Assembly: GCA_964392925.1 (NCBI GenBank)
Contig: CAYMRP010000001.1
Coordinates: 51,945 to 115,944, forward strand
Direction of reading: 5' to 3'
DNA: 64,000 nt
Source of the DNA: an uncultured Gammaproteobacteria bacterium
Lineage (GTDB): Bacteria; Patescibacteriota; Microgenomatia; Daviesbacterales; UBA10151
This document shows, piece by piece, positions 23,970 through 45,386 of this stretch. The position numbers and the translations under genes were made by a program. The notes beneath the pieces were generated by a model. It saw only the letters and a list, made by a program, of their open reading frames with translations, did not search any database and was not told the origin of the DNA. How positions within the stretch are numbered: the first letter of the stretch is position 1; every line of letters starts with the position of its first letter.

Positions 23970-24034
23970 TTTAAAAACGAAATCTTTCTATCAAATATAG
24001 AAAAAGTATTTCCTCTTTTTCTTTCAGAAATATA

Positions 24035-26277: not shown

Positions 26278-26281
26278 ATTT

Positions 26282-26911
26282 CTAAGCCTGTTTCTTCTGT
26301 CGTTTTTTAGCTGAATTACTTTGTTTTTCAATATAATCAAAAGAATTTTTAAAATAAAGAGTCATCATATGCAGTATAACAGAGTGAATTCCTTCGACCA
26401 ATTCATAAGCCCCTTTTTCAGATTTAACTAAAACTTTTGCATCCGCTAGTTTATTTAACATTCCACCATCAAATCCTGTAACTCCAATAACTGATGCTTT
26501 AAACTCAAGCGCTAACTCAACCGCTTTTATAACATTAGGAGAATTACCTGATGAAGAAATTGCGATAATTGTATCTCCTTCGCGGATATAATTTCTTAAC
26601 GGGCCTGCAAAAATCATATCAAACCCCACATCATTAGCCCATGCCGTAATCTCTGATTCCGTTGTAGGCAGTCTGATTGCCTGAAATCGTCTGATGTTCT
26701 TATCTAAGTGACCGCTAAATACAGTTTTATTAAAATCAGCCACCCAATGAGTTGCCATAGCCAGTGATCCTCCGTTCCCAAAAACATAAATTCTGCCATC
26801 CCTCTCATAAGTTGCCTGAAGAATATTTATCGCCTTTGCGATTTCTTTAACCGGCAAATTCTCAATAAGTTTTGTGCTCTTTTTAATATATCCGTTAATA
26901 AATTTATCCAT
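26282..26911 (-). CDS. gmhA: Sedoheptulose-7-phosphate isomerase (SIS domain)
   Basis: 209 aa (YVFGNGGSLAMATHWVADF; ISSSGNSPNV). Confidence 0.75.
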   Translation of the reverse strand: MDKFINGYIKKSTKLIENLPVKEIAKAINILQATYERDGRIYVFGNGGSLAMATHWVADFNKTVFSGHLDKNIRRFQAIRLPTTESEITAWANDVGFDMIFAGPLRNYIREGDTIIAISSSGNSPNVIKAVELALEFKASVIGVTGFDGGMLNKLADAKVLVKSEKGAYELVEGIHSVILHMMTLYFKNSFDYIEKQSNSAKKRQKKQA

Positions 26912-26920
26912 ACGAAGGCC

Positions 26921-33229: not shown

Positions 33230-34177
33230 CTATCCCTCAAGAATCTTCTTATAAAATTTGAGGTTGCTTACCTGTTCTTTTATTGTACATAGATTCTTTT
33301 TATTTCCCAAAAAAGCCGTAATTTCTTTATAAATTCCTGGTTTATAATCCAAATCCAACTTGTCATCTATGCTGTAATCCTTAACCTTAAAACTTCCTAC
33401 ATCCTGAATCTGCAATTTCTCCAATGGTTTAAAAATTAATTTATGTTTGGCGGTATGTATCTCAACAGCCCATCTTCCTGCCGATTTCCAATTCGCATGA
33501 TATGAAAAAGGGATTCCTTTTTCTAGCAATCCAGAACCAGTAAAGATTGCTCCAGCTGGATGCCATGACAATGTTCCTGAAACTTCACAATTCATTTTTA
33601 CAGGAATACCAGCTATGTAGAATGCCATATCAATAACATGAGTAGAGTTATGTAGAAACCAGTTTTCCTTAACCCCTGGAGCTCTGACTAAAGGCACAAT
33701 TTTGTGAACAGCTTCTGTAAAATCAAAATAAAGCGATAGCACTCCGCCGTCTTTTTTAATGATCTTGGAGGCTTCCTCAACTGAAGCATAAAACCTTCTG
33801 TTGTATCCCAAGTAAACATTAGTCCCTTTTTCCTCAGCTGTCTTTGCTACTTTCTTGATTTCCTGAAAATCTGCTCCTCCTGGTTTTTCAGCTAGGATCT
33901 CTTTAGTCCCGGCCTTTATCAACTTAATTGTAGTCAATCCAATCTGATCTTCGCTTACTGCCACGATTGCACTTTTTGGAACATTTAAATTCTCAGCTAA
34001 ATATTTTTCAATCCCTCCTCTGAATACTTTTACTCCAATTTCCTTTTCAAAATTATTAGCTGATTCTTCTCCTCGTCCAACAACAATAAATTCCTGTTTT
34101 AAAGCTCTCAATACCTTTGCAAATTCAACGCCCATGTAACCTGATCCGATTAGTAATATTGGTTGATTATTTTTCAT
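33230..34177 (-). CDS. Gfo/Idh/MocA family oxidoreductase
   Basis: 315 aa. The N-terminal Rossmann motif reads ILLIGSGYMGVEFAKVL. Confidence 0.65.
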   Translation of the reverse strand: MKNNQPILLIGSGYMGVEFAKVLRALKQEFIVVGRGEESANNFEKEIGVKVFRGGIEKYLAENLNVPKSAIVAVSEDQIGLTTIKLIKAGTKEILAEKPGGADFQEIKKVAKTAEEKGTNVYLGYNRRFYASVEEASKIIKKDGGVLSLYFDFTEAVHKIVPLVRAPGVKENWFLHNSTHVIDMAFYIAGIPVKMNCEVSGTLSWHPAGAIFTGSGLLEKGIPFSYHANWKSAGRWAVEIHTAKHKLIFKPLEKLQIQDVGSFKVKDYSIDDKLDLDYKPGIYKEITAFLGNKKNLCTIKEQVSNLKFYKKILEG

Positions 34178-34179
34178 TT

Positions 34180-35157
34180 TTAAGTAAAAGGATACAAATT
34201 CTGTTTTTTATCAGAATTCCTATTTATAAATCTTAACAGCTCCTCAAGTAGTTCTAAATGCACTTTTACAGATTGTTGGTAAGTCGGGAGACCACAACTT
34301 CCTGTTTTAAGAATATCTTCAACAACAATATTTGTCATATCACTTTGAAAGAGTAATGATTCTGGTGAGGGTTTAATCTCCCATTTTGGGGAATTAGAAA
34401 TAAATGTTTCTCTGGTCGTCTCATTAGCAGTTGCTTGAAAACTATCTGAACTAATTTGAGCTATGATCGGAGCTTCGCCTTCAGGGAAATCTGAGAAAAC
34501 TCCGGTACTGCCATTACTAAAATTAACTATCATAGTCCCAGTCAATTCTAGAAAGCCTGCTCTTTTGCTTTGCAAAAGATTCTTATCAAGTCCGGTTGTA
34601 TCAACTTTAAATTCATAATCATCTAGAAGAAAGGCCATATGATCAATAAAATGTATGGCTTGAGTGGCGATACCAAACCGGCTGCCAGTTAACAGATAAA
34701 CAATTCTCTTCCCTTTAAATTTGTCCTTTAACTTTTGATAAAAAGGGGTAACTCTCATACTGCAATTAACCCAGGCTTTAATGTTTTTCTTCTCCAGCAA
34801 TCTATTAACAAAATCGTAATCATTCTTTTTCTGAAAAAGTAATTTCTCAAAAATAATGTTTCTCACCTCAGATTGGGTTAGTAATTCCTCAGTAACTTTA
34901 CGGCGGATATTTGAACTAGTAGCGATTATAGCCACATCAACCTGAGTCGATATCATCCTGGAATCTGTCAAAAAAATAATCTGATGTTTACTATGATTTG
35001 GTATTTGCTTGAATCTTTCTTCAGCAACTTTTAACGATTCGATAGAAGGATCAAAAACCTCAATAGATAGAGGACTATTTATCTTAGCCAGCCCCTGCAG
35101 ATGCCGGCTGCCGATATTACCTGCACCAATAAGAACAATATTCTTAGGCGGTTTCAT
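34180..35157 (-). CDS. Gfo/Idh/MocA family oxidoreductase
   Basis: 325 aa (IVLIGAGNIGSRHLQGL). Confidence 0.65.
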   Translation of the reverse strand: MKPPKNIVLIGAGNIGSRHLQGLAKINSPLSIEVFDPSIESLKVAEERFKQIPNHSKHQIIFLTDSRMISTQVDVAIIATSSNIRRKVTEELLTQSEVRNIIFEKLLFQKKNDYDFVNRLLEKKNIKAWVNCSMRVTPFYQKLKDKFKGKRIVYLLTGSRFGIATQAIHFIDHMAFLLDDYEFKVDTTGLDKNLLQSKRAGFLELTGTMIVNFSNGSTGVFSDFPEGEAPIIAQISSDSFQATANETTRETFISNSPKWEIKPSPESLLFQSDMTNIVVEDILKTGSCGLPTYQQSVKVHLELLEELLRFINRNSDKKQNLYPFT

Positions 35158-36433
35158 TTTTCTCCCAAACAGGGTGTCTTAATTCCCATTGATTATTCTC
35201 CAATTTCCAAAGATGGGGAGAGCGTCCTCTATTAATTAACTTCCAAAATTCTTCTTCAGTTAATTCCATATACTCCAAAATCTGTTTAAAGTACTTAGCA
35301 GGAAACTCTGTATCAAATTTTTTGACTAGAGCCACCCCTTCTTCCCGGGTAATCTTTCTGTTTCTAATTTCTTGTGATGAATCATAAGAAGCCCTTCCTA
35401 AGCCAAACTTTATCAGTGTTGTGTAATAATGAAACGGATCTATTCTGTCATCAATCGAAGAGTACTTTGAGTAAGATCCTTCTGTGCGTTCAGTATTTGG
35501 TTTAAAACCTGTGTGTTCTGCAGCATAATAGTAACATTCCTGTGGGTCCCATTTTAAATAGTACCCAAGATAATGAACTGTCGTCCCGACCTTTTTAATC
35601 AGCGACTTGTCGGCAGGTAAATAGGGAAGTAGATCATTCTCCTGCAATTTATATTCCTTAATAAGATCACGCGCTTTTACCCCTCCTAAAAATACTTTAT
35701 TTAAATCAATATCGTCCTCATAAAATTTTGGATCCATAGTCGGTTTAAAATTTTCCTTAATATTATGCCCGTACTCTGCCTGGTTTTCTCCGTAAAAAAT
35801 TAATGGCACCTTATGTAAAACTGATTGCTTTGAAGCAATATGTCTTTGTCCAACAATAAAAGGTTGAAATGGGTGAAGCAGATTCACAAACGCCAGTTTT
35901 GTTAAAAGTCTGTGCAATTTACCGTTAGGCGAAAATAATACATTATCAAAACCACTATGAATCCAAGATTTAAAATTTTCAAAACCAATATCAGTATAAA
36001 TATGTGGAGCCCATGTCACAGTTAGCGGATTCATTTTATACTTGTATTTAAGTATGTGTGAAGTAAAAGCACTGTCTTTACCTCCTGAACCAGGAACTAT
36101 GCAATCATAGTTGCCTTTTTTACTTCTATAAAAGTTACACAGCTTAATCAATTCTTTTTCTCTTTTTTCCCAGTCAATCTCCTGATCTTTAATATCTGCA
36201 TATCTGCATGCTGAGCAAACACCTTCTTTGTCCATTGCGATTGTCTCTTTTTTATTCGCCTGCTTATTCTTAAATTCGACTGTCGAGTTTGGTCTTTGAT
36301 TTGAAATAATGCATCTTGTACAAAATTTAACTTGAGACGGAAGTCCATAAAGAGCCTTTAAGTTTTTAGTTTTAGTAGGGGAGAATTGAGTTAGTTCTGA
36401 TTTTTTAAGACCGGCTGTTATAAAGTTATCCAT
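35144..36433 (-). CDS. N-acetyl sugar amidotransferase (WbpG/WbuX/PseA family, PP-loop ATPase)
   Basis: 429 aa. The PP-loop reads CIVPGSGGKDS and the N-terminal cysteine-rich region reads CTRC ... CSAC. Confidence 0.7.
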   Translation of the reverse strand: MDNFITAGLKKSELTQFSPTKTKNLKALYGLPSQVKFCTRCIISNQRPNSTVEFKNKQANKKETIAMDKEGVCSACRYADIKDQEIDWEKREKELIKLCNFYRSKKGNYDCIVPGSGGKDSAFTSHILKYKYKMNPLTVTWAPHIYTDIGFENFKSWIHSGFDNVLFSPNGKLHRLLTKLAFVNLLHPFQPFIVGQRHIASKQSVLHKVPLIFYGENQAEYGHNIKENFKPTMDPKFYEDDIDLNKVFLGGVKARDLIKEYKLQENDLLPYLPADKSLIKKVGTTVHYLGYYLKWDPQECYYYAAEHTGFKPNTERTEGSYSKYSSIDDRIDPFHYYTTLIKFGLGRASYDSSQEIRNRKITREEGVALVKKFDTEFPAKYFKQILEYMELTEEEFWKLINRGRSPHLWKLENNQWELRHPVWEKNETA

Positions 36434-36439
36434 TAGTAG

Positions 36440-37138
36440 TTAATCTCGCACAATTTTTTTATCAGAACATCTCTCTACAAATTTTCCAAAATTTCTATAA
36501 ATCTCGGGGCCATCTTTACCACTCTTTTCAGGGTGAAACTGAACAGCAAAAACATTATTCTTTGAGACAGCACTTACAAACTCAAACCCCTCGTAATTTG
36601 TAGTCGTAGCGATAATATCACGATCCTCAGGAATGCAAAAGTAGGAATGTACAAAATACATATAATCGCTATTTTTAAATCCTTTAAACAATGATGTTTC
36701 CTTTTTGATTTCAATTTTATCCCAGCCAATATGAGGTATTCTCATTCTCTCAGTCGTATCAGGTGTATTGTTAAACTTCTTAACAGATCCCTTAAAAACT
36801 CCCAAACCTTGATGTTCTCCAAATTCCGTACTCGTCTCAAACAACAACTGCATTCCTAAACAGACACCCATAAACGGTTTATTCTTCTGAATGTGATTTT
36901 TTATAGCCTGTGTTAAACCCAGCGAATCCAGATTCTTCATGGCATCCGCAAAGGCCCCAACCCCAGGCAGTATTATGCCATCGGCCTCATCTAGATCCTT
37001 AGGATCAGAAGTTATCTTTACATCGATTCCTACATATTCGCAAGCATGTGCCACTGAAAAAAGATTACTCAATTTAAAATCAATAATCACAATGTTCAAT
37101 TTTCTAAATGTATTACTGTCTTTATTTAAGATCGGCAT
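36440..37138 (-). CDS. HisH-like glutamine amidotransferase (WbuY-type, paired with the amidotransferase above)
   Basis: 232 aa class-I GATase (GVCLGMQLL, catalytic Cys; HVQFHPEKS). Confidence 0.75.
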   Translation of the reverse strand: MPILNKDSNTFRKLNIVIIDFKLSNLFSVAHACEYVGIDVKITSDPKDLDEADGIILPGVGAFADAMKNLDSLGLTQAIKNHIQKNKPFMGVCLGMQLLFETSTEFGEHQGLGVFKGSVKKFNNTPDTTERMRIPHIGWDKIEIKKETSLFKGFKNSDYMYFVHSYFCIPEDRDIIATTTNYEGFEFVSAVSKNNVFAVQFHPEKSGKDGPEIYRNFGKFVERCSDKKIVRD

Positions 37139-37968
37139 GAAACCCCATTTCTTTTTAAATACTTTTTCACTTCCTCAACAGAACTTATTTTTATATTTTT
37201 ATTCGACAACCCGCTTTTTATAAAATTATTACTTCCTTGTTCAAGATCAACATCTCGGCTCATTCTCTCAAGAGCACCATAGTGAAGCATTGAGGCAATA
37301 GCAATTCCACCGACTCCATTAATCAAACAAGCATCCTTTATGTCATCCAATTTTCCTGCACCTCCGTGTACCACGATCGGAACATTCACAGCCCTTGCAA
37401 CGGCTTTGATTAAATCGGTATCAAAACCCTTTCCTGTACCCTCCTTATCAACCGACGTAAGAATTATTTCTCCGGCTCCCAGACTCTCCACCTGTTTTGC
37501 CCATGCTATAACCTCAAGTCCTGTCTTTTCTCTGCCATTATCAGTAAATGCATAATAATTACCATCGCTTTGTTTGATTGCCTCAATCGAAACGACAAGA
37601 TTAGCTGACCCAAAAAGATTGGCCGCTTCAGAAATTAGTTGCGGATTCTTGACAGCAGCAGTATTAATAGAAACTTTATCTGCTCCGGCCCGAAACATAG
37701 CTTGCATATCTTGAATACTTCTAATGCCTCCTCCAACTGCCAGTGGTATGAAGATCTCCTTAGCAGTTCTGGTAATTATTTCCTGCAAACTATTTCTTCC
37801 GTAAAGAGAAGCCACCACATCCATATACAAAAGTTCATCAGCTCCATTATCAAAATAGTATTTTGCATATTGCTCGGGTCGACCTAGAATTCTCAGACCT
37901 TCAAGATGCATACCTTTCACTAAATTCGGCCCTTTAATATCAAGTCTTGGGATAATTCTTATATTCAT
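37126..37968 (-). CDS. HisF-like cyclase subunit (WbuZ-type)
   Basis: 280 aa TIM barrel (RIIPRLDIKGPNLVKG; VGGGIRS; HGGAG). Confidence 0.75.
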   Translation of the reverse strand: MNIRIIPRLDIKGPNLVKGMHLEGLRILGRPEQYAKYYFDNGADELLYMDVVASLYGRNSLQEIITRTAKEIFIPLAVGGGIRSIQDMQAMFRAGADKVSINTAAVKNPQLISEAANLFGSANLVVSIEAIKQSDGNYYAFTDNGREKTGLEVIAWAKQVESLGAGEIILTSVDKEGTGKGFDTDLIKAVARAVNVPIVVHGGAGKLDDIKDACLINGVGGIAIASMLHYGALERMSRDVDLEQGSNNFIKSGLSNKNIKISSVEEVKKYLKRNGVSCRS

Positions 37969-38813
37969 AATGATTCTTTCCGAAGAAAATTCTCAAAAGT
38001 TTTCTTAAGTCCTGATTCCAAAGAATACTCGGGCAAAAATCCGGCAGCTTTTATAATTTTCCCATTATCACCAACAATGGACTTTTTTTCCAACATTTCT
38101 ACTCCTTCAATCCTCTTTAATTTTATTTGTCCTGTCTTTTCTACTTCTGATATTAATTCGTTTATAGAGTATCCGCGCCCGCTGCAAATATTGAATATCT
38201 CGACTTGAAATTCTTGATTATTAATAATCAAGAATTTGAGATACTTCGCCACATCTTCAACAAATATATAATCCCGGATCTGATCTCCACTATTATTTAC
38301 CGAGAACGGTAATTTATTGTAAGTAGCGCTAACTATTTTTTGCACAATGCCTAAATTCTTCACATCACCATAAACATTCCCAATTCTCGCAATAGTTAAT
38401 AGCTTATTTTGTTTCCTAACAAATTGAATTAACAATGTCTCTTCCTTAGCTTTTTGCTTTTCGTAATCTGTAATAGGATTAACTTCTGATTCTTCAGAAT
38501 GCTTTCTTAAACTGTCCTTATATAGGAGTAGGGTAGAGCCAAAAATTATTCTCTTTATATCCTGACTATAATCCTGAATATATTTGATTAATTCTAGATT
38601 TGGCTGAGTCAAAATTATAACTAAATCGCACTGATCTAATAAATTCTCCTTCGAACTAAATTTTATATATTTGACATTTTTAAACCTAAACTTCGGTGAG
38701 CTTTTGTTATAGATAACCCTAACTTTTAATTCTGGAGTTTCCTGCAACAGTTTAACTAGATACCCCCCAATAAATCCATTCCCTCCAAACACCGCTACAT
38801 TTCTTAACGCCAT
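37965..38813 (-). CDS. NAD(P)-dependent sugar reductase/epimerase (short SDR, RmlD-like size)
   Basis: 282 aa (VAVFGGNGFIGGYLV). Confidence 0.55.
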   Translation of the reverse strand: MALRNVAVFGGNGFIGGYLVKLLQETPELKVRVIYNKSSPKFRFKNVKYIKFSSKENLLDQCDLVIILTQPNLELIKYIQDYSQDIKRIIFGSTLLLYKDSLRKHSEESEVNPITDYEKQKAKEETLLIQFVRKQNKLLTIARIGNVYGDVKNLGIVQKIVSATYNKLPFSVNNSGDQIRDYIFVEDVAKYLKFLIINNQEFQVEIFNICSGRGYSINELISEVEKTGQIKLKRIEGVEMLEKKSIVGDNGKIIKAAGFLPEYSLESGLKKTFENFLRKESL

Positions 38814-38816
38814 AAT

Positions 38817-39968
38817 CTAGTATGTTATCACTTTTTGGATCGGCGGCAGCTCGATAGTTTCTAAAATCCTAACCACCTTCTCCGCAGTATTCCCAGCATC
38901 ATACGGATTCTTACCATTATGTACCTTATTTATAAATTTCTTATCAAACAAACATCTTTCAATCGCATTCATAATTTCTTTTTTATCATAATCAACATCA
39001 ATTGTATTAACTCCTTTTTCTCTAAATTGTTCACGCGTTCCGATATTAACTGTTGGTAATTTTAACGAAGGAGCTTCGTGAATCCCGGCTGAAGAATTGC
39101 CCACCAAGACTGACGCAATATTCATTAGTCTCAGAAAATCTTCATAATCAATATGAGGAAAAGAATTAATTCCTGATTTTTCTATATACTTAACAATTCT
39201 GCCTCCTCCAGCATCATTATTTGAATAAACAGCCAAAGCCTCTGTGTCATGTTTCTGATTCATTTCTTTCACAGCATCAATAGTTTCTTTAATTTGCGAC
39301 TCCACTTTATCAACCTCAGTCGTAACCGGGTGCTGCAAAATAATAATTAACGGTTTTTTATAATCAAAGTTATACTTTTTGGCTAAAGATTCTTTTGATG
39401 AATACGAAATATTATGAATGGTATCCAAACTTGGACTTCCAACATTAAATACATATTTAGGATTCTCACCGAGTTTAATAATTCTATTTTTACTTCTCTC
39501 TGTCGCCGCAAAATGAATATGGGCAAACTTTGTCATACCATGTCTAATAACTTCATCAACGGTTCCTGACACTTCACCTCCCTGGATATGAGACACAACA
39601 GTATTAATATGCATTCCTGTAATTGCGGCCGCAAAGTTAGCACCAATATCAAATCCAGAAAAAATAACATCGGGTTTTAATTTCGGGAAAATATCCGCAA
39701 ATGCAACTAAAGCTTTACCCATCCCCCTAACCATAGACGCACCATCATCGTGATCTTTCTCGCTAAATATAGGCACTAACTTATCAATTCTAAATCCATC
39801 CTGAAGGATATTCTTTTTTGTTTCACCATACTTTTTTAATAAATGCATCCCTGTCACAACTAATTGGAGCTCTAACCTCGGAGATTTTTGAACCGCTTTC
39901 ATAATTGGTTTTAAACGGCTGTAATCAGCCCGTCTTTCTGTGATAAATAATATTTTTCTTTTTTTCAT
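38817..39968 (-). CDS. UDP-N-acetylglucosamine 2-epimerase, hydrolysing type (NeuC/LegG family)
   Basis: 383 aa. The N-terminus ILFITERRADYSRLKPI matches the NeuC-type TGTRADxxKLxP region. HIQGGE is also present. Confidence 0.65.
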   Translation of the reverse strand: MKKRKILFITERRADYSRLKPIMKAVQKSPRLELQLVVTGMHLLKKYGETKKNILQDGFRIDKLVPIFSEKDHDDGASMVRGMGKALVAFADIFPKLKPDVIFSGFDIGANFAAAITGMHINTVVSHIQGGEVSGTVDEVIRHGMTKFAHIHFAATERSKNRIIKLGENPKYVFNVGSPSLDTIHNISYSSKESLAKKYNFDYKKPLIIILQHPVTTEVDKVESQIKETIDAVKEMNQKHDTEALAVYSNNDAGGGRIVKYIEKSGINSFPHIDYEDFLRLMNIASVLVGNSSAGIHEAPSLKLPTVNIGTREQFREKGVNTIDVDYDKKEIMNAIERCLFDKKFINKVHNGKNPYDAGNTAEKVVRILETIELPPIQKVITY

Positions 39969-39980
39969 GTTGTGAAAATA

Positions 39981-40829
39981 CTAAAGAGGTTTTTCTAAAA
40001 CAAATCCAACAGCTCTGTTTCCAAATCCTCCAATATTATAATTCACAAACACCTCCGGTAAATTTGCATCATTCTTAACTTTGCGGTTTTCCGGATTGTC
40101 TGTTTTTATAATAATTTCTTGAATAATTTTAAATCCAGATTTCTTAATAAATTTCTCCCATTCAAATAGTCTATATTCATGTTCGCCATTTTCCCTTCTG
40201 GTTAGTTTAATTCCTGCCGGTCTAAAATTATTCTTTAAAAATTCTTCGCTATAAACTATATTTAACATTCTCTCGATCTCTTTATCCGGCGTATCATTAT
40301 TATGAAACTTATCAACAAAGATAAATCTACCTCCCGGTTTTAAAACTCTTAACGCTTCTTTTAAAGTTACAACAGGATTCAGTGAGTGATGCATCGAGAA
40401 CCAGCAAGTTGCAAAATCAAGAGATGAATCTTTGATATTTAAATTATCAAAGTCGCCAATAACTGATACAACTTTATTTCTTTGGGGTTCATCTAGAATC
40501 TTATTAATTACAATTGGTTGACAAAGAGTCACTACACTTTCCACCAACTCTACACTATAAATTTTCTTGACCTGTTCCTTTTTAGCGATAGTAGCGCTTA
40601 TGCATCCAACACCAGATCCTAAGTCGATACCTTTACCATAAAATGATTCCCAGCCTTCCGGGATATGCAAAAAAGTTTTTTTGACATCATCAGGCGAAAT
40701 ATAAACATAGTCCGAAATTAGCGCGTTATAACCTTTTTTGGATAATTTTTGCGCCAGCAACTCATTCCCTTTATATTCCTGATTATCTATATTAAAGCCA
40801 ATTTTCCATCTTTGAATTTTAGACTTCAT
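39981..40829 (-). CDS. Class I SAM-dependent methyltransferase
   Basis: 282 aa (GIDLGSGVGCIS ... LKPGGRFIFVD). Confidence 0.6.
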   Translation of the reverse strand: MKSKIQRWKIGFNIDNQEYKGNELLAQKLSKKGYNALISDYVYISPDDVKKTFLHIPEGWESFYGKGIDLGSGVGCISATIAKKEQVKKIYSVELVESVVTLCQPIVINKILDEPQRNKVVSVIGDFDNLNIKDSSLDFATCWFSMHHSLNPVVTLKEALRVLKPGGRFIFVDKFHNNDTPDKEIERMLNIVYSEEFLKNNFRPAGIKLTRRENGEHEYRLFEWEKFIKKSGFKIIQEIIIKTDNPENRKVKNDANLPEVFVNYNIGGFGNRAVGFVLEKPL

Positions 40830-41878
40830 TTTTTTATCTTCAAATCACTCCATTTTATTTGAACATCATTAGGAATATCTTTTAGAGCCACTTTCCCCAG
40901 AACTTTTTTGAAATCAACAGCTTTTATCTGACCAGTTCCAGGCCTTTTAACCCAAATATTATCTTTAGTGAATTTCTCTCCTTTTTTTATTTCCTTTATC
41001 GAAACAACACAGGAATAAGCAAAATCTATAGTCGGCTGTTCTTCTTTTAGAATCTCCTTTTTACCGCCTAATGATTTATGAATAGCTGCAGACCCAATTA
41101 TTAAATCTTTTAATTCAGCGGGATCAATTGAAATAGCAATATCCGGCCCTGCCCATTTTTTACTAGAAGTAAAATGTTTCTCTATTAAAGAAGCCCCAAG
41201 TGCCACAGCTCCAAAAGAAGTATAGTTGCCGATCGAATGATCCGATAAACCAATTGGAATTCCCGGAAAAGCTTTCATAAGTTCTGCAATCCCTCCCAAT
41301 CTTACTTTTTCATAAGGGGTAGGGTAGAGCGAGGTACAATGAAAAAGCGCCAGCGGAGTATTGTGTTTTTGAATTGTTTTAACCGCAATTTTAATTGAGG
41401 GAATATCATTCATTCCAGTTGAAAGAATAATCGGTTTCCCAAAAGAAGCAATATGATCTATCAACGGATAATTATTGCACTCACCAGATCCTATTTTAAA
41501 CGCCGGCACCTTCATTCTATTTAACCTGTCAGCTGCGGCTCTGGAAAATGGTGATGATAAATATATCATTCCTAAATCTTCTACATACTTTTTTAATTTA
41601 ATTTCCGCTTCCTCCGAGAGAGCGCATCTCTGCATGATTTCATAAATTGATTCTTTAGTATGACCGGGAACTACTTTCTTAGCCTCTGCAATCATCTCAT
41701 CATCTATAACATGAGATTGAAATTTTACACACTCAGCCCCAGCCCTTTTAGCGTCATCAACCATCTTAATAGCCTTTTTAAAACTACCTTCATGATTAAT
41801 ACCGATTTCTGCAATCACAAATGGGGTAAAATCAGGTCCAATTTTTCTTTTAGAAATAGTTATAAATGGTTTTGCCAT
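40826..41878 (-). CDS. N-acylneuraminate-9-phosphate/nonulosonic acid synthase (NeuB/LegI/PseI family with C-terminal SAF domain)
   Basis: 350 aa (PFVIAEIGINHEGSFKKAIKMVDDAKRAGAECVKFQSH; C-terminal SAF-like region). Confidence 0.75.
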   Translation of the reverse strand: MAKPFITISKRKIGPDFTPFVIAEIGINHEGSFKKAIKMVDDAKRAGAECVKFQSHVIDDEMIAEAKKVVPGHTKESIYEIMQRCALSEEAEIKLKKYVEDLGMIYLSSPFSRAAADRLNRMKVPAFKIGSGECNNYPLIDHIASFGKPIILSTGMNDIPSIKIAVKTIQKHNTPLALFHCTSLYPTPYEKVRLGGIAELMKAFPGIPIGLSDHSIGNYTSFGAVALGASLIEKHFTSSKKWAGPDIAISIDPAELKDLIIGSAAIHKSLGGKKEILKEEQPTIDFAYSCVVSIKEIKKGEKFTKDNIWVKRPGTGQIKAVDFKKVLGKVALKDIPNDVQIKWSDLKIKK

Positions 41879-41942
41879 ACAATATTGATAGTTCTAACAT
41901 GTTTAGATTTTCAGTTCAATATGAAAGTGTATAATCTCCCTA

Positions 41943-42890
41943 ATGAAAATTGTATTTTTCGGACTGGGATCAATAGGCCAACGACATGCCCGGCTTCTAA
42001 AAGAAAATTATCAGCATCAGCTTTTCGCTTTCCGTTCCGGAATTAACAAATCCCCAAACAATTTAGGAATAACTGAATTAAATAATTGGCAGCAAATAAA
42101 AAAAATTAACCCCGAAGTGGTTTTTATCACTAACCCGACATCTCTTCATATAAAAACTGCTTTAAGGTGCGCTCATCTTGGAGCCAAGCTTTTCATCGAT
42201 AAACCAATCGGTAGTAGTCTAACAGGACTTGATGAGTTACTAAGTGTTATAGAAAGTAAAAAACTAGTCTCATATGTTGGTTACAATCTCCGTTTTCATC
42301 CGGTAATCATCAATCTGAAAAAATATTTTAAAACCAATAAATTTTTGCATATGCGAATTACTGCGGCTTCATATCTCCCTAATTGGAGACAGGGAACTGA
42401 TCACAAAAAAAGTTATCGTTCAAACAAACAAATGGGTGGGGGGATTATTCTCGATCTGTCACACGAAATTGACTATGCTGATTTCTTGTTGGAAGGCATT
42501 ACAACGATTAGAGGTCAATTTTCAAAAAGAAGTAATTTAACAATTAATGCCGAAGACTATGCTGATATTTTGATAAATTCAAAATTGGGTCCAGCAAACT
42601 TACACATCAATTTTTTAAGTCACCAAAATCAAAGAACAATCGAAATCGATTTTGAAAAAATGACTATCTCAGCCGATCTGATTAATTCAACAATCAAAAA
42701 ATTTAAAAAGGAGAAATTGATTAGTGAGCAAAGTTTTAATGTTGAAAGAGATTCAATTTTTAAGAAACAGCTTGAATATTTCTTTAAAAATATTGATAAT
42801 CCCAAAATGACTAACAATCTCACCGACGCAGCCAGACTTTATAAAAAAATAATCTCATTTAAGAATAGTGAAATTAACAAAAATGGATAA
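41943..42890 (+). CDS. Gfo/Idh/MocA family oxidoreductase
   Basis: 315 aa (IVFFGLGSIGQRHARLL). Confidence 0.6.
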   Translation: MKIVFFGLGSIGQRHARLLKENYQHQLFAFRSGINKSPNNLGITELNNWQQIKKINPEVVFITNPTSLHIKTALRCAHLGAKLFIDKPIGSSLTGLDELLSVIESKKLVSYVGYNLRFHPVIINLKKYFKTNKFLHMRITAASYLPNWRQGTDHKKSYRSNKQMGGGIILDLSHEIDYADFLLEGITTIRGQFSKRSNLTINAEDYADILINSKLGPANLHINFLSHQNQRTIEIDFEKMTISADLINSTIKKFKKEKLISEQSFNVERDSIFKKQLEYFFKNIDNPKMTNNLTDAARLYKKIISFKNSEINKNG

Positions 42891-44391
42891 TATTTTAATA
42901 ACAATTTGCGCCCGGGGTGGCTCAAAAGGTGTAAAAGGTAAAAACATCCGCAATCTAAACGGTAAGCCGCTTATCTACTACACAATTAAACAAGCTTTGG
43001 AATGGGGAAAAGCATCGAAAATCGTAGTCACTACCGATTCAAAAATTATTGCTGAAATAGCAAAATCTTTTGGAGCCGAAGTTCCTTTTCTCCGCCCTAA
43101 GAATCTATCAACCGACACCGCCCCGACACTTCCGGTTCTAACCCATGCCTTACTTGAATCAGAAAGAATATATAAACAAAAATTTGATTTACTTATAGAC
43201 CTGCCCGTAACAGCTCCTGTTAGATCAATTAAAGATATTGAAAATTCCTATAAACTTTTTAAGAAGAAAAATCCCAAAAACCTCGTCACTGTTACACCGT
43301 CTCACAGAAATCCTTACTTTAACATGTTGGAAATAAACAAAAAGGCTAGAGTTGAATATTCCAAACAAGGATCTTTTACCCGCCGCCAGGATGCGCCGCA
43401 AGTTTACGATATGAATAATTCAATCTATATTTATCAAAGTGATTATCTCCGGACTGATGGGATTAAGGATAAAATTTCTGACGACACAATTGCTTATGTG
43501 ATGGATCCAATATCTGCAATTGATATCGATACCGAAACAGACTTTAGAATTCTGGAAGCCTTAGTAAAAGATTCTGTAGTTAAAATTGATAATCAGAATC
43601 CTAAAAATGACTCGACTAAATTCTCTCTTTACGGCAAAGTCGCATTTGTAAATGGTGGAGCCGGATTAATCGGTGAGCAAATCGTTAAACAGTTTACTGA
43701 AGCTGGAGCTAAAGTAATTTTGCTGGATATAAATAAAAAGAAATCCGTTCAAATCGCAGAACAATTAAATGAAAAAGGCGGCGATGTAAATTTTGAAATC
43801 TTTGATATTACTAAACTTGATTCAATAGACAAAACAATCGATGCTTTATATAAAAAATATGGCCGGATAGATATTTGGGTTAATACTTCTTTTCCTAGGA
43901 CAAGTGATTGGGGCAAGAAAATTGAAGATTTTCCACTCGAGTCTTTCCAAAAGAATGTTTCAATGCATCTAAATAGTTATAGCTGGATCAGCCGTAAAGT
44001 TTGTTTAGTTATGAAAAAACAAAAAGGCGGCAGCTTAATTAATTTTGGTTCAATCTACGGAGCTGTTGGCGCAAACTTTAATATTTATGAAAACACAAAA
44101 ATGACGAGCGCCTTTGCTTATTCTGCAATAAAAGGCGGCATAATTAACCTCAGCCGTTATTTGGCCTCATACTTTGGACAATATAATGTTAGAGTCAACA
44201 CAATCTGTCCAGGCGGAATTTTTGATAACCAGGATGAAACATTTGTTAGTAACTATTCTAAACAAACACCATTAAAAAGAATGGGCCAGCCGGAAGAAAT
44301 CGCTCCCGTCGTTTTGTTTCTGGCATCAGAAGCCGGATCGTATGTTACCGGCGCAACCATAATGGTCGATGGGGGATGGACAGCTATATGA
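42868..44391 (+). CDS. Fusion protein: N-terminal CMP-nonulosonic acid synthetase (acylneuraminate cytidylyltransferase family, ~235 aa) joined to a C-terminal short-chain dehydrogenase/reductase (~255 aa)
   Basis: 507 aa. The N-terminal half has NILITICARGGSKGVKGKNIRNLNGKPLIYYTI. The C-terminal half has AFVNGGAGLIGEQI (Rossmann) and YSAIKGG (YxxxK). Confidence 0.7.
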   Translation: MKLTKMDNILITICARGGSKGVKGKNIRNLNGKPLIYYTIKQALEWGKASKIVVTTDSKIIAEIAKSFGAEVPFLRPKNLSTDTAPTLPVLTHALLESERIYKQKFDLLIDLPVTAPVRSIKDIENSYKLFKKKNPKNLVTVTPSHRNPYFNMLEINKKARVEYSKQGSFTRRQDAPQVYDMNNSIYIYQSDYLRTDGIKDKISDDTIAYVMDPISAIDIDTETDFRILEALVKDSVVKIDNQNPKNDSTKFSLYGKVAFVNGGAGLIGEQIVKQFTEAGAKVILLDINKKKSVQIAEQLNEKGGDVNFEIFDITKLDSIDKTIDALYKKYGRIDIWVNTSFPRTSDWGKKIEDFPLESFQKNVSMHLNSYSWISRKVCLVMKKQKGGSLINFGSIYGAVGANFNIYENTKMTSAFAYSAIKGGIINLSRYLASYFGQYNVRVNTICPGGIFDNQDETFVSNYSKQTPLKRMGQPEEIAPVVLFLASEAGSYVTGATIMVDGGWTAI

Positions 44392-45386
44392 GAGATTATA
44401 AAAAAGCATTTCAAAACAAAAGAATATTAGTAACCGGAGGAACCGGCTCAATTGGTACTGAAATCGTCCGTCAACTTTTAAAATACAGTCCAAAACAAAT
44501 TAGAGTTTTCTCCAGAGATGAGCACAAACAACATCTCATGCAAAACGAGCTTGGCAACCCTAAAAACAACAAGATTCTTCGTTTTCTAATAGGAGACATT
44601 CGGGATAAAGAGCGTTTGAATCGGGCCTTCAATGACATAGATATCGTTTTTCACGCCGCCGCTTTAAAACATGTCCCTTTTTGTGAAGCAAATCCTTTTG
44701 AAGCTATGAAAACCAACGTTTTGGGAACCCAAAATGTTATTGAACTAGCAATTGATCACCGAATCGAAAAAATGGTTTCTATCTCAACTGACAAAGCCGT
44801 CAATCCCAGTACTTTTATGGGAATTACCAAATTAATGTCAGAAAGAATGGTCATAGCCGCACCTAACTATTCAGGCCATCCGGAAATAAAATTTGCTGTA
44901 GTCCGTTTCGGTAACGTTATAAATTCCCGTGGTTCTGTAATTCCTTTATGGATCGATCAAATTAAAAAAGGCGGCCCTGTTCTTGTCACCGATAAAACCA
45001 TGGAACGGTTCTTTATGACCATCCCCGATGCTGTAAATCTGGTGTTTTCTGCTGCATCTCAAATGTTAGGCAGCGAGATCTTCGTCCTAAAAATGCAAAA
45101 GTATAAAATCTATGATATCGCCCAGGAATTAATTAAAAAATACGCAGCTGGTGGAAAAGTGAAAATAAAAATAGTAGGAGCCCGAGACCGTGAGAAAAGT
45201 GATGAGTATCTCTTCACTGAAGACGAAGCCAAACTAATGCTGGAATCCGGTCCCTTCCACATCATCCTTCCCAATAAGGACCTCTATCAAAAAAGACAAA
45301 ATAAATATAATTCCAAAATAAAATCCCCCAATCAAACCAGCATCTTCAGCGCCCTAGAGCAGCTTGACCTGACAAACCCACTCTAG
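44376..45386 (+). CDS. UDP-N-acetylglucosamine 4,6-dehydratase (PseB/FnlA/CapD family)
   Basis: 336 aa (RILVTGGTGSIGTEIVRQLL; VFSRDEHKQ; FHAAALKHVP). Confidence 0.7.
   Translation: MDSYMRDYKKAFQNKRILVTGGTGSIGTEIVRQLLKYSPKQIRVFSRDEHKQHLMQNELGNPKNNKILRFLIGDIRDKERLNRAFNDIDIVFHAAALKHVPFCEANPFEAMKTNVLGTQNVIELAIDHRIEKMVSISTDKAVNPSTFMGITKLMSERMVIAAPNYSGHPEIKFAVVRFGNVINSRGSVIPLWIDQIKKGGPVLVTDKTMERFFMTIPDAVNLVFSAASQMLGSEIFVLKMQKYKIYDIAQELIKKYAAGGKVKIKIVGARDREKSDEYLFTEDEAKLMLESGPFHIILPNKDLYQKRQNKYNSKIKSPNQTSIFSALEQLDLTNPL

What the first reader, a model, noticed from the sequence alone, without database searches (positions are those of the whole stretch)
42868..44391. CMP-sugar cytidylyltransferase fused to a short-chain dehydrogenase
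The N-terminal ~235 aa carry the acylneuraminate cytidylyltransferase signature (ICARGGSKGVKGKN...). The C-terminal ~255 aa are a complete SDR (GGAGLIGEQI; YSAIK). Known bifunctional NeuA proteins carry a C-terminal esterase instead. In Campylobacter the legionaminic-acid locus has a separate CMP-sugar synthetase (PtmB) and SDR oxidoreductase (PtmA). A covalent fusion suggests an oxidation or reduction step that is coupled to, or acts on, the CMP-activated sugar.
Basis: seen in the sequence. Interest (0 to 1): 0.6.

Follow-up and report, generated by a model that had tools for sequence, protein, structure and literature searches.

The report
Sialic-acid-like sugar activator fused to reductase
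This is a real single gene that joins the enzyme that CMP-activates a sialic-acid-like sugar to a reductase usually encoded by the next, overlapping gene; it is a fused form of a known three-enzyme module thought to flip one hydroxyl of such sugars, so it is useful but not a new kind of system.

Summary
Window 42868/42883-44391 (+) is one uninterrupted ORF. It has an N-terminal CTP_transf_3 cytidylyltransferase, a flexible linker of about 19 residues, and a complete C-terminal classical SDR. It is not an assembly artefact: 64 protein clusters (97% to 31% identity) from independent assemblies, including an isolate genome, share the architecture.

A Gfo/Idh/MocA oxidoreductase gene (41943-42890) overlaps the fusion's start by 8 nt. 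In the closest genome, and in cultured bacteria and a haloarchaeon, the cytidylyltransferase and the SDR are separate genes that overlap by 4-14 nt. This trio has the same composition as Acinetobacter baumannii ElaA/ElaB/ElaC, the proposed CMP-legionaminic acid C8-epimerase.

The SDR half shares ElaC's unusual 23-residue Ser-to-Tyr spacing and 10 of the 14 ElaC residues named in that paper. An unbootstrapped tree suggests fusion or fission happened several times.

Most likely function: a bifunctional CMP-nonulosonate synthetase/keto-reductase that, together with the upstream oxidase, epimerises a side-chain hydroxyl. It is a new variant of a known kind. A related fusion (EpaA, cytidylyltransferase::aldo-keto reductase) was described in 2025. 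Interest is moderate to low. The local cluster lacks the aminotransferase and acetyltransferase of legionaminic/pseudaminic acid pathways, so the sugar itself may be unusual.

The parts
41943..42890 (+). Gfo/Idh/MocA oxidoreductase (315 aa), the ElaA/PtmF-type partner and predicted oxidase of the epimerisation pair
   Evidence: Pfam GFO_IDH_MocA plus GFO_IDH_MocA_C3. Catalytic-type K87 (DKP) and H174 (DLSHEID) are present. PDB 3EZY, the molecular-replacement template for ElaA, is the third-best hit. It is 29% identical (E 8e-41) to the Gfo/Idh/MocA gene of the Rhizobium sp. WL3 split trio, and that protein hits no other Gfo/Idh/MocA gene in the window. A homologous gene sits directly upstream of the fusion in L006, L008, L009 and L016.
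42883..42890 (+). 8-nt overlap (ATGGATAA) between the stop of the Gfo/Idh/MocA gene and the ATG of the fusion, suggesting translational coupling
   Evidence: Sequence. The same kind of 4-8 nt overlap occurs in L006, L008, L009, L016 and L017.
42883..44391 (+). The fused gene (502 aa from the ATG; the longest ORF starts at GTG 42868, 507 aa)
42883..43578 (+). N-terminal CMP-nonulosonate synthetase domain (aa 1-232; CTP_transf_3, NeuA/PseF/LegF/ElaB type)
   Evidence: Pfam PF02348. PseF model aa 12-232. Best solved relative is 6IFD, a CMP-Pse synthetase and the template for ElaB. The P-loop A10-R11-G12-G13-S14-K15-G16 and K20/N21, R71, R168/Q169 and D216 are invariant or at least 90% conserved in 58 fused homologues. 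D214/D216 correspond to the ElaB Mg ligands D211/D213. It is the only cytidylyltransferase domain in the window.
43579..43635 (+). Interdomain linker (aa 233-251, ...VVKIDNQNPKNDSTKFSLYG); it holds the remnant AATGACT of the ancestral stop/start overlap
   Evidence: The AlphaFold2 model has pLDDT below 50 at aa 237-241. The split relative L002 has CTATGACT at the homologous place. Linkers are 6-32 residues long and unrelated between fused clades.
43636..44388 (+). C-terminal classical SDR domain (aa 252-502) of the ElaC/PtmA/6UH2 clade; predicted NAD(H)-dependent keto-reductase
   Evidence: adh_short_C2 E 5e-46. PRK09186 scores 248.9 bits against a cut-off of 255, and PtmA 181 bits. The best PDB hit is 6UH2, which is the Leptospira interrogans protein and the ElaC template. 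Conserved residues: G258/G261/G264, D282, N334, S390, Y413, K417. The Ser-to-Tyr spacing is 23 residues, as in ElaC, and 10 of 14 named ElaC residues match at a +245 offset.
44376..45386 (+). PseB/FnlA-like UDP-GlcNAc 4,6-dehydratase (Polysacc_synt_2). Its probable start, ATG 44388, overlaps the fusion's TGA (ATGA)
   Evidence: NCBIfam PseB 321.7 bits and FnlA 240.8 bits, both below their cut-offs. Sequence. The gene is conserved directly downstream in L002, L003, L006 and L007.
40826..41878 (-). NeuB-type nonulosonate synthase, transcribed divergently from the Gfo/Idh/MocA-fusion operon
   Evidence: TIGR03569 381.9 bits against a cut-off of 399.65.
38817..39968 (-). NeuC/LegG-type hydrolysing UDP-HexNAc 2-epimerase
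   Evidence: TIGR03568 389 bits against a cut-off of 235.9.
35144..37968 (-). WbuX-type N-acetyl-sugar amidotransferase with HisH-like and HisF-like subunits (acetamidino formation)
   Evidence: TIGR03573 350.9 bits. Translations. Pfam families of the syntenic genes in L006.
37965..38813 (-). Extended-SDR epimerase/reductase (282 aa), a candidate 4-keto reductase for the hexose stage
   Evidence: Weak GalE/RmlB-type hits. Epimerase family in the syntenic L006 gene.
33230..35157 (-). Two further Gfo/Idh/MocA paralogues, not orthologous to the fusion's partner
   Evidence: Pfam. The Rhizobium trio's Gfo/Idh/MocA protein does not hit them.

Best explanation
The gene encodes a bifunctional enzyme of nonulosonic-acid (sialic-acid-like sugar, NulO) biosynthesis. 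The N-terminal domain is a CMP-NulO synthetase of the ElaB/LegF/PseF type. It joins CTP to the nine-carbon sugar made by the neighbouring NeuB-type synthase. A flexible linker of about 19 residues connects it to a C-terminal NAD(H)-type short-chain reductase of the ElaC/PtmA type. Together with the translationally coupled Gfo/Idh/MocA dehydrogenase encoded directly upstream (ElaA/PtmF type), it forms an oxidise-then-reduce epimerase. The Gfo/Idh/MocA enzyme oxidises a side-chain secondary hydroxyl of the CMP-sugar to a ketone (C8 by analogy with ElaA). The SDR domain then returns hydride to the opposite face and gives the CMP-activated epimer that the glycosyltransferases use. The fusion arose from two genes whose stop and start codons overlapped. 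It probably keeps the activating and reducing activities in one complex in fixed 1:1 amounts. Shown here: the domain identities, the intact catalytic residues in both halves, the linkage with the Gfo/Idh/MocA gene, the split-versus-fused relationship and the NulO context. Inferred: the substrate, the carbon attacked, the direction of each redox step, and that the chemistry acts on the CMP-sugar.
For: Architecture and intact active sites. Confident two-domain model with only the linker disordered. The SDR half belongs to the same clade as 6UH2, the template used to solve ElaC. It has the same 23-residue Ser-Tyr insertion, which the ElaC authors propose binds CMP, and 10 of 14 named ElaC residues at a constant offset (S145, Y147, V150, I156, Y157, Y168, K172, Q205, F209, Y213). 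D282 after beta-2 indicates NAD(H), in line with ElaC crystallised with NAD+. A Gfo/Idh/MocA gene overlaps the start of the fusion here and in four of the five distinct fusion-bearing contexts sampled, down to 36% identity and including the isolate Agrobacterium albertimagni. The unfused trio with overlapping genes occurs in Rhizobium sp. WL3 (Gfo-CTP-SDR) and in the haloarchaeon Halorussus (CTP-SDR-Gfo); Legionella adelaidensis has the overlapping CTP-SDR pair at the record start, where no upstream Gfo/Idh/MocA gene is listed; the closest genome (Ca. Daviesbacteria, 75% identity) also has split, overlapping genes. In A. baumannii, lgaABCDEFG loci give legionaminic acid and lgaABCDEF+elaABC loci give the 8-epimer, and deleting elaA, elaB or elaC markedly reduced capsule production. 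EpaA (cytidylyltransferase::aldo-keto reductase) plus the SDR EpaB were shown by complementation and NMR to convert Pse to 8-epi-Pse, which is a precedent for fusing the activating enzyme to one member of the redox pair. The fusion carries the only cytidylyltransferase domain in the window.
Against: No biochemical assay exists for this protein or for any fused homologue. Even for ElaA and ElaC the CMP-level mechanism rests on genetics, crystal structures and docking, not on enzyme assays. I could not obtain ElaA/B/C sequences, so the ElaC comparison rests on residue numbers quoted in the paper plus the shared template, not on an alignment. Four named ElaC residues do not match (Y91, Y97, M164, P165). 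The window's cluster lacks the LegC/PseC aminotransferase and the PglD-type acetyltransferase, so the substrate cannot be Leg5,7Ac2. Campylobacter and Plesiomonas carry homologous PtmA/PtmF genes yet are reported to make legionaminic acid, and the literature places PtmA in the early GDP-GlcNAc segment of the pathway. One distant fused clade (32% identity, marine) has no adjacent Gfo/Idh/MocA gene.
Confidence: 0.6

Rival explanations
1. Same three activities, opposite order. The Gfo/Idh/MocA enzyme and the SDR domain epimerise the free nonulosonic acid, and the fused cytidylyltransferase domain then activates the epimer. On this view the fusion couples the last redox step to a cytidylyltransferase that is specific for the epimer.
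For: The redox pair always comes with its own cytidylyltransferase. In A. baumannii ElaB replaces LgaG instead of being added to it. The prophage-borne EpaA brings a second cytidylyltransferase domain into strains that already make CMP-Pse. Both facts are easier to explain if the activating enzyme must recognise the epimer. A fusion is equally compatible with handing the product from the SDR to the transferase.
Against: The ElaC and ElaA structures were modelled with CMP-linked substrates, and the long Ser-Tyr loop is proposed as a CMP pocket. That loop is conserved here. The WlbA-type Gfo/Idh/MocA enzyme used as the reference for ElaA acts on a nucleotide sugar. None of this is decisive.
Confidence: 0.2
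2. The SDR domain is the 4-keto reductase of the hexose stage. It would reduce the UDP-4-keto-6-deoxy-HexNAc made by the PseB/FnlA-like dehydratase, and it is fused to the cytidylyltransferase only because the two genes were neighbours.
For: The cluster has a 4,6-dehydratase whose gene overlaps the fusion's 3' end, and it has no aminotransferase to consume the 4-keto sugar.
Against: The same fused protein, and its split SDR relatives, occur in clusters that do have a LegC/DegT aminotransferase and an acetyltransferase (L008, L009, L016, L017), where no 4-keto reductase is needed. The window already has an extended-SDR candidate for that step (37965-38813). The SDR shares the pocket residues named for ElaC.
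Confidence: 0.08
3. PtmA/PtmF-type role in precursor supply. The SDR and the Gfo/Idh/MocA protein would help make the amino-sugar nucleotide precursor (the GDP-GlcNAc segment assigned to PtmA/PtmF in Campylobacter), and would have nothing to do with the CMP-sugar.
For: The literature places PtmA in the first (GDP-GlcNAc) segment of the Campylobacter pathway, and a 2026 preprint groups PtmA and PtmF with the precursor-stage enzymes PtmE and PgmL. From my own recollection of Schoenhofen et al. 2009, which I could not read here, PtmA and PtmF were assigned to the step from fructose-6-P to GlcN-6-P. The SDR half scores 181 bits on the PtmA model.
Against: The window's NulO cluster has no PtmE-type CBS-nucleotidyltransferase; the only weak PtmE hit lies in the separate heptose pathway. 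Its dehydratase is of the UDP-GlcNAc-using PseB/FnlA type. Repeated fusion to the last enzyme of the pathway, and stop/start overlap with it, point to a late step. The A. baumannii genotype-to-sugar correlation links the pair to C8 configuration, not to precursor supply.
Confidence: 0.05
4. The fusion is an artefact: a frameshift or assembly error that joins two separate, overlapping genes.
For: The closest genome (L002, 75% identity) has two genes that overlap by 4 nt, so a single indel could create an apparent fusion.
Against: There are 64 fused clusters from independent Logan, ENA, JGI and NCBI assemblies. They include a 97%-identical protein with nearly the same linker and 11 clusters at 74-81% identity. 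One fused protein is found on 22 contigs. Linkers have diverged in sequence while staying in frame. About 12 representatives at the 50%-identity level match end to end.
Confidence: 0.02

Closest known systems
ElaB (CMP-legionaminic acid synthetase) plus ElaC (SDR reductase), with ElaA (Gfo/Idh/MocA oxidase), of the Acinetobacter baumannii KL49 capsule locus (PMC13656337; PMC9676051)
   Same: The same three enzyme families occur in the same order: Gfo/Idh/MocA, then cytidylyltransferase, then SDR. The nearest solved structures are shared: 6IFD and 6UH2 are the top PDB hits for the two halves of the fusion and 3EZY is the third-best hit for the upstream protein. The SDR has the same 23-residue Ser-Tyr insertion, and 10 of 14 named ElaC residues match. 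The Mg-binding DxD of ElaB is present. The Asp after beta-2 indicates NAD, as for ElaC.
   Different: ElaB and ElaC are separate proteins, whereas here they form one chain. The window's cluster lacks the aminotransferase and acetyltransferase needed for Leg5,7Ac2. Residues of the proposed 7-N-acetyl pocket differ (Y97 to D, M164 to S, P165 to A). P410 is otherwise family-wide and is lost only in the window's own clade. The host is probably a CPR bacterium (Ca. Daviesbacteria-like), not a proteobacterium.
PtmB/LegF (Cj1331), PtmA (Cj1332) and PtmF (Cj1330) of the Campylobacter flagellin-glycosylation locus, and their Plesiomonas/Vibrio counterparts (PMC4481668)
   Same: A cytidylyltransferase, an SDR of about 255 aa and an oxidoreductase of about 326 aa are encoded side by side in a NulO cluster. 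The PtmA model aligns over the whole SDR half (181 bits).
   Different: The genes are separate. The score is far below the PtmA equivalog cut-off of 350. The literature assigns PtmA to the early GDP-GlcNAc segment, not to the CMP-sugar stage (PtmF is grouped with it).
[quoted passage not shown]
   Same: A cytidylyltransferase domain is fused at its C-terminus to one member of a redox pair that epimerises a NulO. The other member is encoded next door.
   Different: In EpaA the fused redox domain is an aldo-keto reductase and the SDR is the free partner. Here the SDR is fused and the free partner is a Gfo/Idh/MocA enzyme. The Leptospira locus that encodes 6UH2 has the Epa-like domain set as separate genes.
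Bifunctional NeuA (CMP-Neu5Ac synthetase with a C-terminal O-acetylesterase) of E. coli K1 and group B Streptococcus (from my own knowledge)
   Same: An N-terminal CTP_transf_3 domain carries a C-terminal domain that modifies the sugar.
   Different: The C-terminal domain there is an SGNH-type esterase, not an oxidoreductase. No esterase family was detected here.
PDB 6UH2, a short-chain dehydrogenase of Leptospira interrogans (structural-genomics entry, no assigned function)
   Same: It is the best solved relative of the SDR half (E 4.5e-38; 35% identity to the near-identical P0240). It has the same long Ser-Tyr loop and is encoded in a NulO cluster two genes downstream of a CTP_transf_3 gene.
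   Different: It is a stand-alone protein. Its redox neighbour is an aldo-keto reductase rather than a Gfo/Idh/MocA enzyme.

Membership tests
CMP-nonulosonate synthetase (CTP_transf_3; NeuA/PseF/LegF/ElaB) | Match to PF02348 above the gathering score | tested here: met
   72.3 bits against a cut-off of 22.6, aa 13-187. Best solved relatives are 6IFD and 1EYR.
CMP-nonulosonate synthetase (CTP_transf_3; NeuA/PseF/LegF/ElaB) | N-terminal P-loop (xARxxSKG...KN) and the Mg-binding DxD | tested here: met
   A10-R11-G12-G13-S14-K15-G16 and K20/N21 are at least 90% conserved or invariant. D214-I-D216 matches ElaB D211/D213.
CMP-nonulosonate synthetase (CTP_transf_3; NeuA/PseF/LegF/ElaB) | Equivalog-level assignment to one sugar (for example PseF, TIGR03584) | tested here: not met
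   The PseF model scores 143.8 bits against a cut-off of 205.7. Sugar specificity is not assigned.
CMP-nonulosonate synthetase (CTP_transf_3; NeuA/PseF/LegF/ElaB) | Formation of CMP-NulO from CTP and NulO | not testable with these tools
   This needs an enzyme assay.
ElaC/PtmA-type SDR (PRK09186 clade) | Classical SDR with a glycine-rich cofactor motif and the catalytic N-S-Y-K residues | tested here: met
   G258/G261/G264, N334, S390, Y413 and K417 are invariant in 58 fused homologues.
ElaC/PtmA-type SDR (PRK09186 clade) | Elongated loop between the catalytic Ser and Tyr (ElaC S145 to Y168, 23 residues; the proposed CMP pocket) | tested here: met
   S390 to Y413 is 23 residues. All 58 fused proteins have 23 or 28. 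The generic SDR 1VL8 aligns with a 9-residue gap there.
ElaC/PtmA-type SDR (PRK09186 clade) | Substrate-pocket residues named for ElaC | tested here: inconclusive
   10 of 14 match at a constant +245 offset. Y91, Y97, M164 and P165 do not. The comparison uses residue numbers from the paper, not an alignment to the ElaC sequence.
ElaC/PtmA-type SDR (PRK09186 clade) | Score above the curated NCBIfam equivalog cut-offs | tested here: not met
   NF006619 (PRK09186) scores 248.9 against 255, a narrow miss. NF050062 (PtmA) scores 181.2 against 350.
ElaABC-type CMP-NulO epimerase module | A Gfo/Idh/MocA oxidoreductase encoded with the cytidylyltransferase and the SDR | tested here: met
   Gene 41943-42890 overlaps the fusion by 8 nt. 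The same holds in L006, L008, L009, L016 and L017. It is orthologue-like to the Rhizobium trio's gene.
ElaABC-type CMP-NulO epimerase module | Substrate is CMP-5,7-di-N-acetyl-legionaminic acid (the cluster encodes LegB/C/H-type steps) | tested here: not met
   The 64 kb window has no LegC/PseC aminotransferase and no PglD-type acetyltransferase (tblastn; Pfam). More distant fused homologues do sit in complete Leg-type clusters.
ElaABC-type CMP-NulO epimerase module | Inversion of configuration at C8 of the NulO | not testable with these tools
   This needs NMR of the product.
Bifunctional NeuA (synthetase/O-acetylesterase) | C-terminal SGNH/GDSL-type esterase domain | tested here: not met
   The C-terminal half is an SDR, and no esterase family was detected.
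EpaA-type cytidylyltransferase-reductase fusion | C-terminal aldo-keto reductase domain (PF00248) | tested here: not met
   PF00248 does not hit. The C-terminal domain is adh_short_C2.

The most novel reading that the evidence does not exclude
The cluster may make a nonulosonic acid not yet described from any organism of this lineage. With a PseB/FnlA-like dehydratase, a NeuC-type hydrolysing 2-epimerase, a NeuB-type synthase and a WbuX/HisH/HisF amidotransferase, but no C4 aminotransferase or acetyltransferase, the product would be a mono-amino sugar: a 5-acetamidino-3,5,9-trideoxy-type NulO with a free 7-OH. The fused enzyme and its Gfo/Idh/MocA partner would then epimerise one of its side-chain hydroxyls. 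On this reading the clade-specific changes in the pocket that holds the 7-N-acetyl group in ElaC (P410 to A, plus S409 and D342) are an adaptation to that substrate. It would also make this a first defined NulO pathway in a candidate-phyla-radiation bacterium.
Probability: 0.25. Interest if true: 0.55.

Novelty: new variant of a known kind. Interest (0 to 1): 0.35.

Why it matters
Two names exist in the literature for what looks like the same gene trio. As PtmA/PtmF it is placed at the start of the legionaminic-acid pathway, in precursor supply. As ElaA/ElaC it is placed at the end, in C8 epimerisation of the CMP-sugar. Repeated covalent fusion of the SDR to the last enzyme of the pathway, always in the same order and usually with the Gfo/Idh/MocA gene overlapping it, is independent "Rosetta-stone" evidence for the late role.

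The fusion also provides a single polypeptide for testing whether epimerisation happens before or after CMP activation. That question matters because ElaABC are proposed antivirulence targets in hypervirulent A. baumannii.

The practical gain for annotation is a rule. A CTP_transf_3::SDR protein, or an overlapping CTP_transf_3/SDR gene pair, next to a Gfo/Idh/MocA gene predicts an epimeric nonulosonic acid rather than plain Leg, Pse or Neu. The finding does not reveal a new kind of chemistry or system.

Tried and rejected
1. Assembly artefact: rejected.

2. tblastn of the fusion against the phage collection, to recover EpaA/EpaB as a tested reference. It returned only generic SDRs, mostly on mislabelled bacterial contigs.

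3. Foldseek of the AlphaFold2 model against the PDB, hoping to find ElaB/ElaC or any two-domain structure. It returned only single-domain SDRs with TMq at most 0.48. The Ela structures are not in the copies searched.

4. Obtaining ElaA/B/C or Campylobacter PtmA/B/F sequences. This was not possible: the one genome-contig scan returned only five loci, the paper gives no accession codes for the structures, and the last homologue search, seeded with 6UH2, returned Leptospira and Aliarcobacter relatives but no Acinetobacter or Campylobacter entries in the top 120.

5. Schoenhofen et al. 2009 could not be read, and a search for a paper stating the PtmA/PtmF reaction found nothing useful. That point therefore rests on secondary citations and my recollection.

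6. Literature searches for a described CTP_transf_3::SDR fusion, or for NulO pathways in CPR/Patescibacteria, found none in the held library. This is absence in that library, not proof of absence.

7. I considered whether one of the two Gfo/Idh/MocA paralogues at 33-35 kb is the partner. Rejected, because the Rhizobium trio's gene matches only 41946-42770.

8. P0403 looked like a reversed-order fusion but is a tandem of two cytidylyltransferase domains.

Full report
OBSERVATION. The window has one uninterrupted ORF at 42868..44391 on the + strand (507 aa from GTG). The more likely start is the ATG at 42883 (502 aa). It matches the called start of a 97%-identical protein from another assembly (P0001) and overlaps the stop of the upstream gene as ATGGATAA. 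All residue numbers below count from that ATG. Pfam places CTP_transf_3 in the N-terminal half and adh_short/adh_short_C2 in the C-terminal half, both far above their cut-offs. NCBIfam aligns the PseF cytidylyltransferase model over aa 12-232 and SDR models over aa 254-505 of the 507-aa ORF.

NOT AN ARTEFACT. A search of 5.8 billion clustered proteins returned 64 clusters with both domains in one chain of about 500 aa. All have the order cytidylyltransferase then SDR, and they range from 97% to about 31% identity. They come from Logan, ENA, JGI and NCBI assemblies. One is on 22 contigs and one is in the isolate genome of Agrobacterium albertimagni AOL15. In a word-index-free search of 1.84 billion representatives at 50% identity, about 12 of the best 150 match the query end to end. 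The nearest relative has nearly the same linker in the same frame. Read support could not be examined.

STRUCTURE OF THE PROTEIN. An AlphaFold2 model built on 58 fused homologues has mean pLDDT 91.8. Only residues 237-241 fall below 50, and pTM is 0.61, so the model shows two well-folded domains whose mutual orientation is undetermined. Across the 58 fused proteins the transferase P-loop (A10-R11-G12-G13-S14-K15-G16, K20, N21), R71, R168/Q169 and D216 are invariant or at least 90% conserved. So are the SDR residues G258/G261/G264, D282, N334, S390, Y413 and K417. Both halves therefore look catalytically competent. D282 after beta-2 points to NAD(H) rather than NADP(H); that reading is an inference from general SDR knowledge. 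Foldseek against the PDB (entries to April 2026) found only single-domain SDR matches.

A Gfo/Idh/MocA oxidoreductase gene (41943-42890) overlaps the fusion's start by 8 nt. A PseB/FnlA-like 4,6-dehydratase gene very probably starts at ATG 44388, overlapping the fusion's TGA. A NeuB-type synthase is transcribed divergently. It is followed by a methyltransferase, a NeuC-type hydrolysing 2-epimerase, an extended SDR, HisF-like and HisH-like subunits with a WbuX amidotransferase, and two more Gfo/Idh/MocA genes. This is a nonulosonic-acid (NulO) cluster.

In fused homologues at 77%, 54%, 36% and 36% identity, a Gfo/Idh/MocA gene again sits directly upstream with a 4-8 nt overlap, inside clusters that contain NeuB and NeuC. 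One distant marine clade (32% identity) lacks it.

FUSED VERSUS SPLIT. Searching with the SDR half alone shows that the top 120 hits are almost all stand-alone SDRs of about 262 aa at 63-77% identity, several labelled Candidatus Daviesbacteria. In the closest genome (Ca. Daviesbacteria MAG, 75% identity) the two halves are separate genes that overlap by 4 nt (CTATGACT). The window keeps AATGACT at the homologous place, but the frames are joined and about ten new residues replace the SDR's own N-terminus.

tblastn against annotated plasmids found adjacent genes annotated as an acylneuraminate cytidylyltransferase and an SDR/oxidoreductase in seven cultured bacteria (an eighth full-length match, in Ensifer adhaerens, has no listed annotation) and in a haloarchaeon. 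Among those inspected, Rhizobium sp. WL3 has Gfo/Idh/MocA, cytidylyltransferase and SDR as three overlapping genes inside a LegB-LegC-NeuC-NeuB cluster with a WbuX set. Halorussus has cytidylyltransferase, SDR and Gfo/Idh/MocA as overlapping genes. Legionella adelaidensis has the overlapping cytidylyltransferase-SDR pair at the start of the record, where no upstream Gfo/Idh/MocA gene is listed.

A neighbour-joining tree of SDR domains has no bootstrap support and is indicative only. It places the window's fused clade as one group nested among split Daviesbacteria-type SDRs, and shows at least six other fused groups interleaved with split forms. Linkers are 6-32 residues long and unrelated between groups. 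The junction has evidently been fused or split several times.

WHAT THE MODULE IS. A 2026 paper (PMC13656337) describes the A. baumannii KL49 genes elaA (Gfo/Idh/MocA), elaB (CTP-transferase) and elaC (SDR). ElaB is said to make CMP-Leg5,7Ac2, ElaA to oxidise its C8 hydroxyl, and ElaC to reduce the 8-keto intermediate to the 8-epimer. The support is deletion phenotypes, crystal structures and docking, not enzyme assays. Across A. baumannii K loci, lgaABCDEFG goes with legionaminic acid and lgaABCDEF+elaABC with 8-epi-legionaminic acid.

The authors solved ElaC, ElaB and ElaA by molecular replacement with 6UH2, 6IFD and 3EZY. 6UH2 and 6IFD are the top PDB hits for my SDR half and transferase half, and 3EZY is the third-best hit for the upstream protein. 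ElaC has an elongated V150-P165 loop between its catalytic S145 and Y168. My SDR has the same 23-residue spacing, and 10 of the 14 residues the paper names recur at a constant +245 offset: S145, Y147, V150, I156, Y157, Y168, K172, Q205, F209 and Y213. Y402, Y458 and F454 are invariant or nearly so in the fused family. ElaB's Mg ligands D211/D213 correspond to D214/D216. The upstream protein has the expected Lys (K87) and His (H174). I could not obtain the Ela sequences, so this is a strong lead rather than an alignment-based proof.

RELATED PRECEDENTS. EpaA from Acinetobacter prophages is a CTP_transf_3::aldo-keto-reductase fusion. [quoted passage not shown] 6UH2 turned out to be a Leptospira interrogans protein. 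Its locus carries a CTP_transf_3 gene, the SDR and an aldo-keto reductase next to a NeuB gene, which is the Epa domain set in unfused form. Aliarcobacter has the SDR, a cytidylyltransferase and a Gfo/Idh/MocA gene in a Maf-linked cluster. So "a cytidylyltransferase plus two oxidoreductases" is a general module of NulO clusters, and different members of the redox pair have been fused to the transferase in different lineages.

CONFLICT IN THE LITERATURE. In Plesiomonas the genes PtmA (SDR, 254 aa), LegF (cytidylyltransferase) and PtmF ("oxidoreductase", 326 aa) are adjacent, and PtmA is described as a key enzyme of the first, GDP-GlcNAc segment of the Campylobacter-type pathway. A 2026 preprint lists PtmA and PtmF with the precursor-stage enzymes PtmE and PgmL. 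I could not read the primary paper. My recollection is that it assigns PtmF and PtmA to the conversion of fructose-6-P to GlcN-6-P. The repeated fusion to the last enzyme of the pathway, the stop/start overlaps, and the absence of a PtmE-type gene from the window's NulO cluster all favour the late, Ela-type role, at least for this protein.

MECHANISM PROPOSED, confidence 0.6. The N-domain activates the NulO with CTP. The upstream Gfo/Idh/MocA enzyme oxidises a side-chain secondary hydroxyl (C8 by analogy). The SDR domain reduces the ketone from the other face. The product is a CMP-activated epimer. Shown: domain identities, intact catalytic residues, gene linkage, the split/fused relationship and the NulO context. 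Inferred: the substrate, the position attacked, the direction of each step and the CMP-level timing.

The main rival (0.2) keeps the same enzymes but has the redox pair act on the free sugar, after which a transferase specific for the epimer activates it. The fact that the redox pair always brings its own cytidylyltransferase fits that order at least as well, and the fusion itself cannot discriminate. Minor rivals are a hexose-stage 4-keto reductase (0.08), PtmA-type precursor supply (0.05) and an artefact (0.02).

WHAT IS UNUSUAL LOCALLY. The 64 kb window has no LegC/PseC-type aminotransferase and no PglD-type acetyltransferase (tblastn; Pfam). The fusion holds the only cytidylyltransferase domain. 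The sugar therefore cannot be Leg5,7Ac2 or Pse5,7Ac2. The gene set suggests a mono-amino sugar, possibly a 5-acetamidino-3,5,9-trideoxy-type NulO. Trideoxy sugars of this class are mentioned for Fusobacterium in PMC7371886, but this is my inference only. In line with it, P410 (ElaC P165, part of the proposed 7-N-acetyl pocket) is conserved in nearly all other fused proteins but is Ala in every member of the window's clade. The nearest named relatives are Ca. Daviesbacteria, so the host is probably a CPR bacterium. I found no paper in the held library that treats NulO pathways in that group.

VERDICT. The thing itself is a fused variant of a known, widespread module (ElaB::ElaC with an ElaA partner). 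It is already present in databases under automatic two-part names, and a published precedent exists for a cytidylyltransferase-reductase fusion. Novelty: new variant of a known kind. Interest: 0.35. It gives useful Rosetta-stone evidence and a convenient system for settling the order of steps, but it would not surprise a specialist.

Noticed in passing
window 45420-46672 (+): Two ORFs (110 and 293 aa) have GC 0.41-0.42 against about 0.35 around them. They have no Pfam family and no counterpart in the syntenic loci L002, L003 and L006. They form a variable insert between the conserved PseB-like and HIT genes.
   Followed up: partly
window 483-10415 (+), also 16221-18050 and 30111-31661: Six tandem ORFs of about 550 aa lie head to tail. 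The first matches PMT_2 (a GT-C-type membrane glycosyltransferase); the other five were not scanned. Two more PMT_2 proteins lie elsewhere in the window. This looks like an unusually large paralogous array.
   Followed up: partly
window 21778-28938 (-): A second sugar pathway of heptose type: a SIS isomerase, a GHMP kinase, an NTP_transferase fused to a HAD phosphatase, three epimerase/dehydratase-family proteins and a C-methyltransferase with a zinc-binding domain (PF08421/PF08484).
   Followed up: no
window 33230-45386 (whole NulO cluster): The cluster has a dehydratase, a NeuC-type epimerase, a NeuB-type synthase, a WbuX/HisH/HisF amidotransferase set and a methyltransferase. The whole window has no aminotransferase and no N-acetyltransferase. 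This implies a NulO with a single nitrogen at C5, possibly acetamidino and methylated.
   Followed up: partly
L019 (Leptospira interrogans contig), 6921-11563: PDB 6UH2, deposited only as 'short chain dehydrogenase', is encoded in a NulO cluster between a CTP_transf_3 gene and an aldo-keto reductase gene. That is the same domain set as the 8-epimerising EpaA/EpaB pair, so its function may be NulO epimerisation.
   Followed up: partly
proteins P0075, P0079-P0120: The cytidylyltransferase domain is fused to many other pathway partners in metagenomic proteins: NeuB synthase, NeuC-type epimerase, 2-hydroxyacid dehydrogenase, class III aminotransferase, HAD phosphatase and PF09861. There is also one triple fusion, CTP_transf_3 + PF01261 TIM barrel + SDR (795 aa).
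   Followed up: no
L011 (metagenome contig), 2854-5702: In one unfused relative (SDR 50% identical) a class III aminotransferase gene lies between the cytidylyltransferase and SDR genes. This hints that a keto-NulO intermediate might be transaminated there instead of reduced.
   Followed up: no
L001 and L003 (contigs of a MAG labelled 'uncultured Gammaproteobacteria'): These contigs carry genes 74-82% identical to the window's fusion and its downstream neighbours, whose other close named relatives are Ca. Daviesbacteria. The MAG label may reflect mis-binning.
   Followed up: no
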